Source of the DNA: Chrysomallon squamiferum | Taxonomy: Eukaryota; Animalia; Mollusca | DNA: 64,000 bases | Assembly: GCA_012295275.1 (NCBI GenBank) | Contig: CM022676.1 | Location: 3,100,001 to 3,164,000 of the forward strand | Direction: 5' to 3' | Shown: positions 2,353 through 46,204 of the stretch, piece after piece | Layout: each line of letters begins with the position of its first letter | Numbering within the stretch: position 1 is the first letter of the stretch | Notes under the pieces: model-generated | What the model was told of the DNA's origin: nothing | Databases searched by the model: none | Seen by the model: only the letters and a program-made list of their open reading frames with translations | Program-made: the position numbers and the translations under genes

Positions 2353-5300
2353 ATGATACTTCTTATTTTTATTTTCATATGCACCAGAATTATCCAAGTT
2401 ATTACAGGTCAGTTTTATATAGCAATTTTGAAAGTTATTTTATTTATTTACATATGTATCTATCTATTTATTTACTTATTTATTATTTATTATTTATTTA
2501 GTTGCTTATTTAGTTAATTAGTTATTTGTTTCTTTCCTTGCTTCTTTGATTTAGATCGGTTTCTTTTACTTTTGTTTTAACAATTTATTTATTTACTTAC
2601 TTATTTATTTTACTTATTTATTTATTTATTTATTTATTTATTTATTTATTTATTTACTTATTTATTTATATTTTTTATCATTATTACTTTAAAATATGTG
2701 TCAGGAAAATTATAATAACAGTCATTATTTTATTGGACTACAGCTTATTTATCAATGTTGCAGGAGAATACACATTGGAACAATCAGAAAAATATGTACT
2801 AATGGGATCATCGATCACTCTAACGTGTAATACAGGAACAAATGTAAGTAAGATCGGCTGGACACGCCAGAACTCTCCTTTCATTTTAACACAAGGGCCA
2901 GGAAACCAATGTCGTGAAACTAAAAACGATTATCAGTTGACATGTTCAAGATCGACTTTTACGCTAACCATTAACGATATTCAGATTGAAGAAAATGGAG
3001 TAAAATGGAAATGCTTCGATGTCGACAGTGGAAGTGAAAGCAATACCGTGATTACTGCCGTGCACTGTAAGATACGTGCACACAAAACAAATTACATATA
3101 ACAGTCACGTTATCCTTTTCGTGTGGTTGTTGTTGTTGTTGTTGTCTATAAACTTGTGAGTTTATTGTACTTAACATATCTGTTTAAATGTATTTCATGT
3201 CTGTTCTTCTAAATCATCATATGCAAAGAAACAAAGAAGCCTCAGTTAAATTGTTAAACCAATTGAATATGTCGCTTATTCTCCAAAATGTAAACAATTT
3301 CTTTTCTTTTTAAAATCATTTTCATTCTCCATTAAATTTAAACAATTTCTTTTCTTTTTTAAATCATTTTCATTTTTCATTATATTTAATTCATTTCATT
3401 ATTATTGCAGTGGTACTCCGATTTACGAGTGCCCCAACTTACTTGTTTTTCGAGTTACCAGCAGTCGTCCCGTCGATCTGTTGCTTTGAGTTGCGAGCCA
3501 AAATATCAGTTACGGACAAGCTTCAGATGTGCCGCCACTAGTTGACGCAATGAATAATATAACATCCGGTCAGCATTCTGCATTTCACTCATTTACTTCA
3601 AGTGGGTACCTCGCCGCGGAAGCATTTCTGTTGTGATGCGCTTGAGCTTTTGTGTAGTATTTTGCCAACTTTATTTTTTCTGACCATGGAGCCTAAGAAA
3701 GTGAGTGCAAAGGACAGTGCTGAGAAGAAGAAGCGGATGCTGTCCACTCAAATAAAAAATGAAATCATTGAAAAACATGAGCGAGGTGTGTGTAGTCGAA
3801 TTGGCTAGGCAGTACGAGCGTAGTACTTCTATGATATGTTCCTAAAGCTGAAGGAGTCGATAAATGCTGTAACTCCAGCGAAAGGCATTAATATAATTTG
3901 TCTGGTCTCCAAGATAAATACACTTTACAAAACCAATTTATTTTTTTTTTTTTTTTTTTTTTCGTTTTTATACAATATCTCTCATTTACAAAATACATTT
4001 TTACATATATATTTAAAAACAGGATATAAAAAAAAAAAAAAAAAAAAAAAAAAAAAAAAAAGAAAGAAAGAAAGAAAAATGGGTTTGTTTTTAGGGGGCT
4101 GGAAAGGATTAATAGTACTTCAATTAATTTCAGTAGGGAAAATGTATTTGATATACGAGCTCGTCACGGAACGAATTAAACTCGTAAGTCAAGGTACCAT
4201 TGTATTATTATAATTACTACTATTATTGTTATTGTTATTATTGTTTTATTATTGTTATTATTTTATTATTAGTAGTATTTTATTATCATTATTACTATTA
4301 TTATTTTGTGTATGATATTTTTGTTGTTGCTGTTGACACAAGTTGATTTGAGTCATTTGGCGATGACGAAGTAATTTTTTAAAGACAAATTTCAAAGAAA
4401 CATTTATATTCGTTTTAGGTGTTATAATGTCATAAATGTTTTGTGAATATCCTCTCTCTCTCTCTCTCTCTCTCTCTCTCTCTCTCTCTCTCTCTCTCTC
4501 TCTCTCTCTCTCTCTCTCTCTCTCTCTCTCTCTCTCTCTCTCTCTCTCTCTCTCTCTCTCTCTCTCTCTCTCTCTCTCTCTCTCTCTCTCTCTCTCTGTA
4601 TATATATTTTTTTTTCTGTGTGTGTACTACAGGAATTAGGCATTATCAGAAACAATTTCAGTCCAAAAGTTCATTAGTTATAGTGTTATCTCCGAAGGAA
4701 CCAACATCCATGTTTTTAATGTCATAGTTTGCTCTCTCTGTTGATCGTTGCCCAGGTGGATACCCAGATATTCCCTGGACCATTCATCACTTTCAGTTTA
4801 GTGATTATACATACCACCTCTAAAATACACAGATAGATAGATAGATAGATAGATAGATAGATAGATAGATAGATAGATAGATAGATAGATAGATAGATAG
4901 ATAGATAAGTAGGTAGGCAGCTACATAGATAGATAACAAATATCATATGTATAGACACATACATGAATATACAAAGAAACATACACGTACGCACACACAC
5001 ACACACACACACACACACGCCGACGCAAGCACAGACACATACTACACATAAGGGGGGTTGTATGTGTATGTATTCAGATTAAGCACAAATTTCTTTTCTT
5101 TTTCAACAGATTTAATCATCACAGGTGAACCTAAAGCCATCTTCAGTTTAAATTATACATTATTTTGTCTTCGACCAAAAACAGCAGAGGATCGTCATGT
5201 TTCTATATTTAAGAGACCCAGTTTCATTTGTGTTGTCCCTCCTATCTGTCAGTACCGTAAATGGGGCAATCTTAGGAAGTGCGGTTGTGTCTACACTAAT

Positions 5301-45700: not shown

Positions 45701-46204
45701 CTTCAATAAGAAAAATGTATTTTTTATTACTAAAATTAAAACTTTTTCATCATGATGATCATTATTATTATTACTAATATTCTTCTCACTGCTAATCAGG
45801 TCGTTAGTTTCGTTAAGTCAGCTAGTTTTATTTTTAGCGTATCTCTGTACAACTAAATCATTATCTTTTCGATGTTTATTAGGAAACGATTTCAAAGACT
45901 TATTAACTTCATCTACAAAAGTGTCCAGGGACGATTTAGCAATGTAGGTGAGCGAGTAGAGGCTGAAAAGAAACAACAATTCGAGCACAAAAGCGAAATC
46001 ATCGGTTCTGCTGAACACACAGGTTCTTCAGCTGAAAACGAAGCTTATATTGAGATTAAATCACAGACCAGTTCTAGTAAAGAGACGTCAAGCATCACAA
46101 CGGGAAAGAAGGTCACAGACGAGGCCTTGGAGAAGGCAGAACACCTCTGGGAAGAGCCAAAAGATGACGACGATTATCATGAGACATTTTTATATCGGCT
46201 TTAA
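39729..46204 (+). pseudogene. Ig-Ig-Ig-TSP1x3 TM receptor, array copy 5, with a nonsense codon in Ig1
   Basis: Exons 39729-39783, 40074-40376, 40866-41168, 41982-42293, 42852-43043, 43738-43929, 44451-44651, 45271-45364, 45883-46204. TAT>TAG at 40241-40243 (Tyr in the other four copies). The Ig2 F-strand WxC has become LRC. Confidence 0.75.
44700..45240. repeat. Fold-back (alternating orientation) TACA/TGTA compound microsatellite in intron 7 of copy 5
   Basis: 44940-45020 is the near reverse complement of 45100-45180, and the motif GTAGGTATGTAAGTATGTGTA occurs in both orientations. Confidence 0.8.

What the first reader, a model, noticed from the sequence alone, without database searches (positions are those of the whole stretch)
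2353..46204. Tandem family of Ig3-TSP1x3 receptors with a single hypervariable middle Ig domain: candidate undescribed invertebrate recognition-receptor system
Seen: five ~9.3 kb paralogues encode SP-Ig1-Ig2-Ig3-TSP1-TSP1-TSP1-TM-tail. By hand count, Ig1 differs at 5/101 aa between copies 1 and 3 and Ig3 at ~10/104 between copies 1 and 2; TSP1, TM and tail look similarly close. Ig2 differs at 32/102 aa (copy 1 vs 3) and about half of its residues (copy 1 vs 2). Established: a constant scaffold with one variable Ig domain in a tandem cluster containing pseudogenes is the pattern of Hydractinia Alr allorecognition genes, KIR/LILR/SIRP-type clusters and other polymorphic receptor complexes. Ig+TSP1+TM is known from UNC5, but UNC5 has 2+2 domains and a ZU5/death-domain tail that is absent here. 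Inference: this is a diversified receptor family whose specificity resides in domain 2 rather than the usual N-terminal domain. It may act in pathogen, self/non-self or gamete recognition. I do not recognise it as a described family.
Basis: partly seen in the sequence, partly recalled or inferred. Interest (0 to 1): 0.92.

Follow-up and report, generated by a model that had tools for sequence, protein, structure and literature searches.

The report
Gastropod receptor array, hypervariable middle domain
Five back-to-back copies of a predicted cell-surface protein gene in a probable gastropod share a nearly identical scaffold but differ in about 40% of the residues of one antibody-like domain, mostly on one predicted face, so they likely form a family of recognition receptors that would tell different foreign cells apart.

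Summary
Five 9-exon genes, 8.9-9.7 kb apart, encode signal peptide-Ig-Ig-Ig-TSP1x3-TM-tail. Copies 1, 2 and 4 are intact; copy 3 has two frameshifts and copy 5 a stop. Ig2 is 49-69% identical between copies, the other Ig and TSP1 domains 84-100%.

Ig2 dS is also raised (0.36 vs 0.03-0.14 in the other mature-protein exons), and whole-domain dN/dS is about 0.9. The scaffold exons are instead more alike than their introns, which points to gene conversion. Within Ig2, silent divergence is flat, but replacements are twice as dense on the predicted front face (omega 1.5 vs 0.4). That face diverges at about twice the rate of a shared intronic transposon. Omega >1 is suggestive, not robust (p 0.03-0.11 in rate-aware tests).

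RNA contigs hold the Ig2 exon, including variants absent from the window; one contig skips Ig1. The Ig type matches uncharacterised limpet, abalone and vent-snail proteins, none with TSP1. It is not UNC5, Alr or FREP. Verdict: a likely recognition-receptor cluster of a known kind with an architecture I did not find described. The ligand is untested.

The parts
2353..9808 (+). Copy 1, intact, 658 aa. Coding exons 2353-2407 (signal peptide), 2764-3066 (Ig1), 5110-5415 (Ig2), 5825-6136 (Ig3), 6927-7118, 7992-8183, 8379-8579 (TSP1 a-c), 8779-8872 (TM), 9487-9808 (tail)
12031..18734 (+). Copy 2, intact, 659 aa. Exons 12031-12085, 12407-12709, 13442-13750, 14550-14861, 15441-15632, 16542-16733, 17210-17410, 17796-17889, 18413-18734
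20968..28181 (+). Copy 3, frameshifted as assembled (+1 base in a T run near 24524-24529 in exon 4; +2 bases near 28113 in exon 9; either could be an assembly error). Exons 20968-21022, 21327-21629, 23513-23818, 24314-24626, 25301-25492, 26231-26422, 26847-27047, 27263-27356, 27858-28181
30344..37565 (+). Copy 4, intact, 658 aa. Exons 30344-30398, 30725-31027, 32945-33250, 33757-34068, 34952-35143, 35888-36079, 36249-36449, 36728-36821, 37244-37565
39729..46204 (+). Copy 5, in-frame stop in the Ig1 exon (40241-40243); open if exon 2 is skipped. Exons 39729-39783, 40074-40376, 40866-41168, 41982-42293, 42852-43043, 43738-43929, 44451-44651, 45271-45364, 45883-46204
5110..5415 (+). Variable Ig2 exon, copy 1 (six invariant Cys; predicted V-type Ig fold)
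   Evidence: RNA cover
13442..13750 (+). Variable Ig2 exon, copy 2
   Evidence: a 30-nt RNA loose end matches it exactly
23513..23818 (+). Variable Ig2 exon, copy 3
   Evidence: a 27-nt RNA loose end matches it exactly
32945..33250 (+). Variable Ig2 exon, copy 4
40866..41168 (+). Variable Ig2 exon, copy 5
3405..4205 (.). About 800-bp insertion with short inverted ends in intron 2 (probable non-autonomous DNA transposon), used as the neutral reference
22016..22757 (.). Same intron-2 insertion in copy 3
31377..32105 (.). Same intron-2 insertion in copy 4 (first 64 nt not aligned); no match in copies 2 and 5

Best explanation
This is a tandem array of five genes for predicted single-pass membrane proteins (three V-type Ig domains on three TSP1 repeats) whose scaffold exons are likely kept alike by gene conversion, while the middle Ig domain likely diversifies under selection on its predicted front face, so that each copy would bind a different foreign ligand as an immune recognition receptor. 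Shown: gene structure; Ig2-only divergence; scaffold exons far more alike than their introns; the Ig2 exon in RNA contigs. Predicted: V-type fold and the front/back face assignment. Inferred: unequal crossing-over made the array; conversion runs in exon-sized tracts bounded by microsatellite-rich introns; conversions across the Ig2 core are purged, so silent and replacement differences both persist there. Also inferred: the TSP1 repeats act as a stalk, and acid-flanked tail tyrosines (EAYIEI, DDDDY) dock SH2 proteins. An immune ligand (microbe or parasite surface) is my choice among untested options.
For: Third positions of the Ig3+TSP1a+tail exons differ at 0.015-0.044 against 0.12-0.24 in repeat-masked introns 2-4, in 10 of 10 pairs (Fisher p<=2.4e-5; pairs not independent). 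Best trees differ between exons. The Ig2 model (pLDDT 77) matches TCR and antibody V domains (Z 11.4, rmsd 1.8, 91 aligned). Mean aa difference is 0.60 on BC/C/C'/C'D/F/FG/G and 0.31 on D/E/EF (permutation p=1e-4). pS is equal on both faces (0.30, 0.34) but pN is 0.34 vs 0.16; omega 1.54 vs 0.39, p=0.003. In copies 1, 3 and 4 the shared intronic element differs at 0.12-0.15, Ig2 third positions at 0.11-0.16, front-face positions 1+2 at 0.29-0.32 (p<=8e-4 in 3 of 3 pairs) and back-face positions at 0.04-0.11. Standard site models reject neutrality (M1a/M2a p=2.5e-4). RNA run X1 covers the exon and stops at its borders; 5 of 7 Ig2-internal loose ends tested differ from every window copy at 5-9 of 30 nt. 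18 of 18 named relatives among 20 looked up are gastropod proteins.
Against: Whole-domain omega is 0.93 and NG86 dN/dS is 0.78. With two whole-codon rate classes the site-model test falls to p=0.11-0.12. Front-face omega >1 gives p=0.09 on five copies and 0.03-0.09 on copies 1/3/4; it is not significant on copies 2/5 (p=0.6) or on the three intact copies 1/2/4 (p=0.09-0.59). I drew the face partition after seeing the alignment. Whole-Ig2 positions 1+2 exceed intron divergence in 9 of 10 pairs but significantly in only 5 of 10. A longest-identical-run test for conversion was significant at 0.05 in only 3 of 10 pairs, uncorrected. No ITIM consensus in 3 of 3 intact tails. There are no tissue, challenge or binding data. 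Two of five copies are broken as assembled.
Confidence: 0.5

Rival explanations
1. Neutral escape. Ig2 fell below the identity needed for conversion and its exposed face drifts under relaxed constraint; the copies are redundant adhesion proteins and Ig2 differences carry no specificity.
For: Whole-Ig2 omega 0.93; rate-aware test p=0.11; front-face omega =1 not rejected on five copies (p=0.09); two copies broken.
Against: Front-face positions 1+2 diverge at about twice the rate of the shared intronic element, although they include conserved Cys and core residues. The back face stays constrained (omega 0.39). The exposed faces of Ig1 and Ig3 do not drift.
Confidence: 0.22
2. Self or cell-identity code. 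Ig2 would bind its own variant on another cell (as Alr1/Alr2 or clustered protocadherins do), giving allorecognition or cell sorting instead of microbe sensing.
For: One variable domain on a conserved scaffold is reported for Alr12A/B (10.1101/2022.03.04.482883, passages); variant-specific homophilic binding for Alr1/2 (PMC9546547, passages); domain-limited homogenisation for protocadherins (PMC3966226, passages). An internal specificity domain would suit an antiparallel trans dimer (inference). Kirrel and nectin-like V domains are among the fold matches.
Against: Solitary gastropods have no known colony-fusion allorecognition (own knowledge). The Alr-defining features are absent (see membership test). 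Five copies plus further variants look more like birth-and-death than an allele series, but alleles and paralogues cannot be told apart here.
Confidence: 0.18
3. Gamete recognition. The family would be a sperm or egg surface protein whose Ig2 tracks a fast-evolving partner while the rest is homogenised, as in abalone VERL.
For: The same pattern of homogenised repeats with one fast part is recalled for VERL (PMC5480393 and PMC8830517 seen only as search listings). The probable host is a gastropod.
Against: Divergence is between paralogues in one genome, not shown between species. The exon is present in 2 of 3 RNA runs labelled metatranscriptomic, with no tissue given. The tail carries signalling-type tyrosines.
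Confidence: 0.07

Closest known systems
Uncharacterised gastropod V-type Ig proteins (e.g. XP_041372829.1 Gigantopelta aegis, XP_046552907.1 Haliotis rubra, XP_050416054.1 Patella vulgata, XP_009053333.1 Lottia gigantea)
   Same: Same domain type: the canonical B/F Cys pair plus extra Cys in the C'-D region, often C-x4-7-C...CxC. Many have a TM segment and acid-flanked tail tyrosines. Ig1, Ig2 and Ig3 all score on a profile of 16 of these domains (35-72 bits).
   Different: They continue with other Ig, Fn3 or GPCR parts; 0 of 48 proteins from or clustered with the Ig search carry a TSP1 hit. In 16 of 18 proteins of 200 aa or more with a near-full match, a match is the first domain. Whether they vary in one domain was not tested.
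Hydractinia Alr allorecognition family
   Same: Tandem single-pass IgSF genes, one exon per domain, pseudogenes, splice variants, and paralogue pairs >90% identical except one Ig domain (Alr12A/B).
   Different: In Alr the variable domain of that pair is domain 1, domain 1 lacks the pin cysteines, the stalk is Fn3-like and tails carry ITAM/ITIM. Here the variable domain is the second, the Cys pair is kept, the stalk is TSP1x3 and no ITIM consensus was found.
Biomphalaria polymorphic transmembrane clusters (PTC1/GRC, PTC2) and VIgLs (FREP, CREP, GREP)
   Same: Gastropod clusters of diverse single-pass genes with excess replacement diversity in extracellular domains (PMC10875847, passages).
   Different: Those carry C-type lectin, Fn3, TMEM154 or fibrinogen domains, and VIgLs are secreted. 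'thrombospondin' occurs 0 times in the main text of PMC10875847, PMC13712769 and PMC11999971.
UNC5
   Same: Ig domains, then TSP1 repeats, then a TM helix.
   Different: UNC5 has 2 Ig + 2 TSP1 and a ZU5-UPA-death domain tail, single copy in fly and worm (PMC10084454, passages). Here 3+3, a 106-aa tail with no Pfam domain, and five copies.
Clustered protocadherins; RHD/RHCE and red/green opsin divergence peaks
   Same: Evolutionary mode: conversion homogenises part of tandem paralogues while a specificity region stays diverged (PMC3924837, PMC3966226, passages).
   Different: Unrelated proteins. In opsins the introns are homogenised; here the scaffold exons are, and the introns are not.

Membership tests
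UNC5 | Two Ig plus two TSP1 domains | tested here: not met
   Three Ig and three TSP1 exons
UNC5 | ZU5-UPA-death domain tail | tested here: not met
   106-aa tail, no Pfam hit below E 0.08
Hydractinia Alr | Tandem single-pass IgSF genes, one exon per domain, with pseudogenes | tested here: met
   feature
Hydractinia Alr | Domain 1 lacks the B/F-strand cysteines | tested here: not met
   All three Ig domains keep both cysteines
Hydractinia Alr | Fn3-like spacer before the TM helix | tested here: not met
   TSP1 x3 at this place
Hydractinia Alr | ITAM or ITIM in the tail (several members only) | tested here: inconclusive
   No ITIM consensus in 3 of 3 intact tails; four tyrosines each, two acid-flanked; ITAM not formally scanned
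Hydractinia Alr | Variant-specific homophilic binding | not testable with these tools
   Needs a binding assay
VIgL (FREP/CREP/GREP) | Secreted, IgSF plus a lectin or fibrinogen domain | tested here: not met
   TM segment at residues ~532-550; no such domain among the exons scanned
Hemicentin | Very large secreted protein with VWA, dozens of Ig, TSP1, G2 and EGF domains (recalled, not from a call) | tested here: not met
   658-659 aa with a TM segment
Biomphalaria PTC-type polymorphic TM clusters | Cluster of single-pass genes with excess extracellular replacement diversity | tested here: inconclusive
   Cluster met; replacement excess between paralogues moderate; allelic diversity not separable
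Biomphalaria PTC-type polymorphic TM clusters | Sequence homology or linkage to parasite resistance | not tested
   No Biomphalaria protein among the 20 of 42 hits looked up; 22 hits were not looked up
Gastropod extra-Cys V-type Ig domain group (unnamed) | Profile match and conserved Cys pattern | tested here: met
   42 hits at E<=0.001, 8 at <=1e-10; reciprocal scores 35-72 bits, and Ig1 was not in the original query

The most novel reading that the evidence does not exclude
This is one locus of an undescribed gastropod receptor complex built on an extra-cysteine V-type Ig domain. Exon-sized gene conversion keeps one signalling scaffold while selection keeps a library of Ig2 binding faces that differs between animals, and skipping the Ig1 exon switches the variable domain to the tip. 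The complex would discriminate microbes, symbionts or other individuals.
Probability: 0.2. Interest if true: 0.85.

Novelty: new variant of a known kind. Interest (0 to 1): 0.62.

Why it matters
Molluscs have few variable recognition receptors with a defined binding domain. FREPs are secreted, and multi-Ig mollusc proteins are mostly auto-labelled 'hemicentin-like' with unknown function (PMC13093298, passages). Here the candidate specificity domain, and even its face, is marked by the sequence itself, on an otherwise constant scaffold. That makes domain-swap binding tests and population tests straightforward. It also points to a wider unnamed gastropod V-type Ig group, and it is a clean natural case of exon-limited homogenisation beside a divergence peak.

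Tried and rejected
No whole genome is held, so copy number outside the window is unknown.

Word-seeded searches with Ig3 among longer proteins and with the Ig2 alignment at similar length found nothing. These are weak negatives; the HMMER search did find relatives. The Atlas gave only unnamed Mollusca clusters at 0.94-0.95, a lead only.

The first Ig2 model (5 rows, pLDDT 58.5) gave no fold match at E<=0.001 and was replaced by the 9-row model. PDB sequence search with Ig1 gave only generic antibody and TCR V hits, best E 1.7e-7. The Ig2 homodimer prediction returned no answer, which is no evidence either way.

The TSP1 search (70 proteins) found no orthologue. The best per-domain scores were in molluscan TSP1 proteins with chitin-binding or C-type lectin domains, and 0 of 70 has this Ig type.

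Reads were laid on exon 3 of copy 1 only, so the other junctions and the lesions in copies 3 and 5 are unverified. Run X4 gave no cover, and X3 and X2 have none over the middle of the exon; neither shows absence. One two-contig loose end before the exon in X1 is a mixed consensus that I could not resolve; a 9-nt loose end was left out as too short.

I considered the idea that Ig1 is a foreign cap on an otherwise N-terminal domain and dropped it: Ig1 belongs to the same domain group. An assembly artefact (collapsed or repeated haplotypes) is rejected: copies differ in intron length, insertions and Ig2, and Ig2 sequences of copies 2 and 3 occur exactly in one RNA run.

Paper searches with no hits. 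Searches with hits but no description of this family in the listings or passages read. Earlier scan findings: none. No supplements were opened, and subscription journals are mostly outside the library.
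Full report
What is there. Self-comparison and exon searches show five tandem units on the + strand. Each has nine coding exons with GT-AG borders. 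Exons 2-7 are symmetric phase-1 exons, one domain each. Copies 1, 2 and 4 give 658-659-aa proteins with two hydrophobic segments, at the N-terminus and near residue 532. Copy 3 has a +1 base in a T run in exon 4 and +2 bases in exon 9; both are the kind of error long reads make, and I could not check them. Copy 5 has an in-frame stop in exon 2. Pfam calls Ig1 V-set (E 2e-6) and two of three TSP1 exons TSP_1; the third aligns with them at all six cysteines.

The contrast is real. Mean aa identity is 0.58 for Ig2 and 0.90-0.96 for Ig1, Ig3, the TSP1 repeats and the tail; the TM exon is 0.84 and the signal peptide 0.79.

How it arose. Mean NG86 dS/dN: Ig1 0.12/0.02, Ig2 0.36/0.28, Ig3 0.04/0.03, TSP1 0.03/0.02, 0.08/0.05 and 0.14/0.03, TM 0.05/0.08, tail 0.03/0.04; the 18-codon signal exon gave 0.49/0.11. 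So Ig2 is diverged at silent sites too. Repeat-masked introns differ at 0.12-0.24 by global alignment (mean 0.14-0.18 by local alignment for introns 2-6 and 8, 0.06 for intron 1, none alignable for intron 7). Third positions of Ig3, TSP1a and tail differ at only 0.015-0.044, below the introns in 10 of 10 pairs. I chose these three exons because they had the lowest dS; Ig1 and TSP1c are intermediate (fourfold sites 0.09). Best trees differ by exon, for example (1,4),3,(2,5) for Ig2 and a 4+5 pairing for the tail. An intron-2 insertion is shared by copies 1, 3 and 4 only, in line with the Ig2 split. I infer exon-sized conversion tracts bounded by microsatellite-rich introns. A run test for tracts was significant in only 3 of 10 pairs, so this rests mainly on the exon-intron contrast.

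Is Ig2 selected? All codon models are my own implementation on five sequences, not codeml. M0 omega is 0.93. M1a/M2a gives p=2.5e-4 and M8a/M8 p=4e-5, with omega 2.7 on about 42% of sites; on codons 21-102 M1a/M2a gives p=0.002. With two whole-codon rate classes the test drops to p=0.11-0.12. The structure gives a sharper test. AlphaFold2 on a 9-row alignment gave pLDDT 77, a V-type Ig fold (Foldseek best E 7e-4; VIA-align Z 11.4, rmsd 1.8, 91 aligned to a TCR V domain). I assigned strands from the model's secondary structure and standard Ig topology, after seeing the alignment. The front set (residues 21-55 and 83-101) has mean aa difference 0.60, the back set (56-82) 0.31 (p=1e-4, residues treated as independent). 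pS is 0.30 and 0.34, pN 0.34 and 0.16; omega is 1.54 and 0.39 (difference p=0.003; front >1 p=0.09). Against the shared insertion in copies 1, 3 and 4 (0.12-0.15), Ig2 third positions sit at the same level (0.11-0.16), front positions 1+2 at 0.29-0.32 (p<=8e-4) and back positions at 0.04-0.11. Without the partition, whole-Ig2 positions 1+2 exceed the insertion in 3 of 3 pairs (p 0.04, 0.02, 0.15). ML on those three copies gives front omega 1.9-2.0 (p 0.03-0.09); on copies 2/5 and on 1/2/4 it is not significant. Reading: the back face is constrained and the front face changes at or above the neutral rate. Diversifying selection is likely but not proven. Under conversion, selection is expected to leave a divergence peak (PMC3924837, passages), so the raised dS does not refute it. 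That the front sheet and its loops are the usual binding surface of V domains is from my own knowledge.

Expression. Three of four listed runs hold words of the tail exon; two are RNA runs of one study and one is of unknown kind. On exon 3 of copy 1, RNA run X1 laid 26 contigs, with cover from the first exon base to just past the last and none in the outer flanking bins; X2 laid 4, X4 none. X3 laid 25 and runs into both introns, as DNA would. These are contigs, so level and strand are unknown. Of 7 Ig2-internal loose ends tested, 2 match copies 2 and 3 exactly and 5 differ from the best copy at 5-9 of 30 nt. One X1 contig is copy-1-like with 5 differences in 160 nt, 3 of them replacements. So more Ig2 variants exist than the window holds, as alleles or paralogues. 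One X2 contig (depth 2.2) joins the end of exon 1 (2 mismatches in 30 to copies 2-4) straight to exon 3. Skipping exon 2 keeps the frame and would open copy 5. It is one low-depth contig and could come from a paralogue that lacks Ig1.

Relatives. A profile of Ig2, Ig3 and a neighbour's domain hit 42 of 1.84 billion representatives; about a third are short partial matches in long multi-Ig proteins. I looked up 20 of 42: 18 are named, all from Gigantopelta, Haliotis, Patella or Lottia, as uncharacterised, hypothetical or similarity-labelled proteins. The host is therefore probably a gastropod; this is an inference. None of 24 scanned with Pfam has TSP1, and none of 48 scores on the TSP1 profile. 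Conversely, 0 of 70 TSP1 hits carries this Ig type. Ig1, Ig2 and Ig3 all score on a profile of the relatives, so the ectodomain is three domains of one gastropod V-type group on a molluscan-type TSP1 stalk. Six of ten relatives' tails examined carry ITIM-like or acid-flanked tyrosines by regex; the window's tails have EAYIEI and DDDDY but no ITIM consensus.

Comparison. It works like other tandem IgSF clusters with one variable domain: Alr (bioRxiv 10.1101/2022.03.04.482883 and PMC9546547, passages), Biomphalaria polymorphic TM clusters (PMC10875847, PMC13712769, passages) and, in evolutionary mode, protocadherins (PMC3966226, passages). It fails membership of UNC5 (PMC10084454, passages), Alr, the VIgLs and hemicentin. 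A 2025 review of invertebrate IgSF does not contain the word thrombospondin (PMC11999971, term search). Ten paper searches turned up no description of this architecture; the library lacks most subscription journals and I opened no supplements.

Verdict. A real, transcribed, lineage-specific receptor cluster: a new variant of a known kind. The likely mechanism is a converted scaffold with a selected Ig2 face that reads foreign ligands (0.5). Neutral escape (0.22), a homophilic identity code (0.18) and gamete recognition (0.07) remain open.

Noticed in passing
window 48804-50982, minus strand: A separate gene converging on the array: probable signal exon (~50928-50982), a six-Cys V-type exon of the same group (49924-50226; 70 bits on the relatives' profile) and a C2-type Ig exon (48804-49148). 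Its 3' exons were not resolved.
   Followed up: partly
window 54860-55200 (+) and 63480-63830 (-): Two related V-like Ig exons facing each other in an inverted duplication (about 54815-58414 vs 61283-63869); weak members of the same domain group (22-28 bits). No further exons were found between them.
   Followed up: partly
window 354-388, minus strand: A 35-nt piece of the TSP1b exon start with its flanking microsatellite, inverted, upstream of copy 1; a possible remnant of another copy.
   Followed up: no
P0002, P0010, P0011, P0025; P0005, P0033; P0007, P0018; P0012, P0020; P0009, P0017: Relatives share a longest-contig length within species: 4 of 5 Gigantopelta, 2 of 2 Patella, 2 of 2 Haliotis cracherodii, 2 of 3 H. 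rubra, 2 of 5 Lottia. This suggests the domain group is clustered in other gastropods too.
   Followed up: no
P0005: A Patella adhesion GPCR carries two of these V-type domains at its N-terminus, so the module is shuffled onto other receptor types.
   Followed up: no
window 5657-5788 and the same place in each copy: A long (CT)n tract sits about 35 nt before the Ig3 exon in all five copies, at the border between the diverged and homogenised blocks; any role in bounding conversion is untested.
   Followed up: no
window 55684-56564: A 440-bp tandem duplication at 99.3% identity; recent or an assembly artefact.
   Followed up: no
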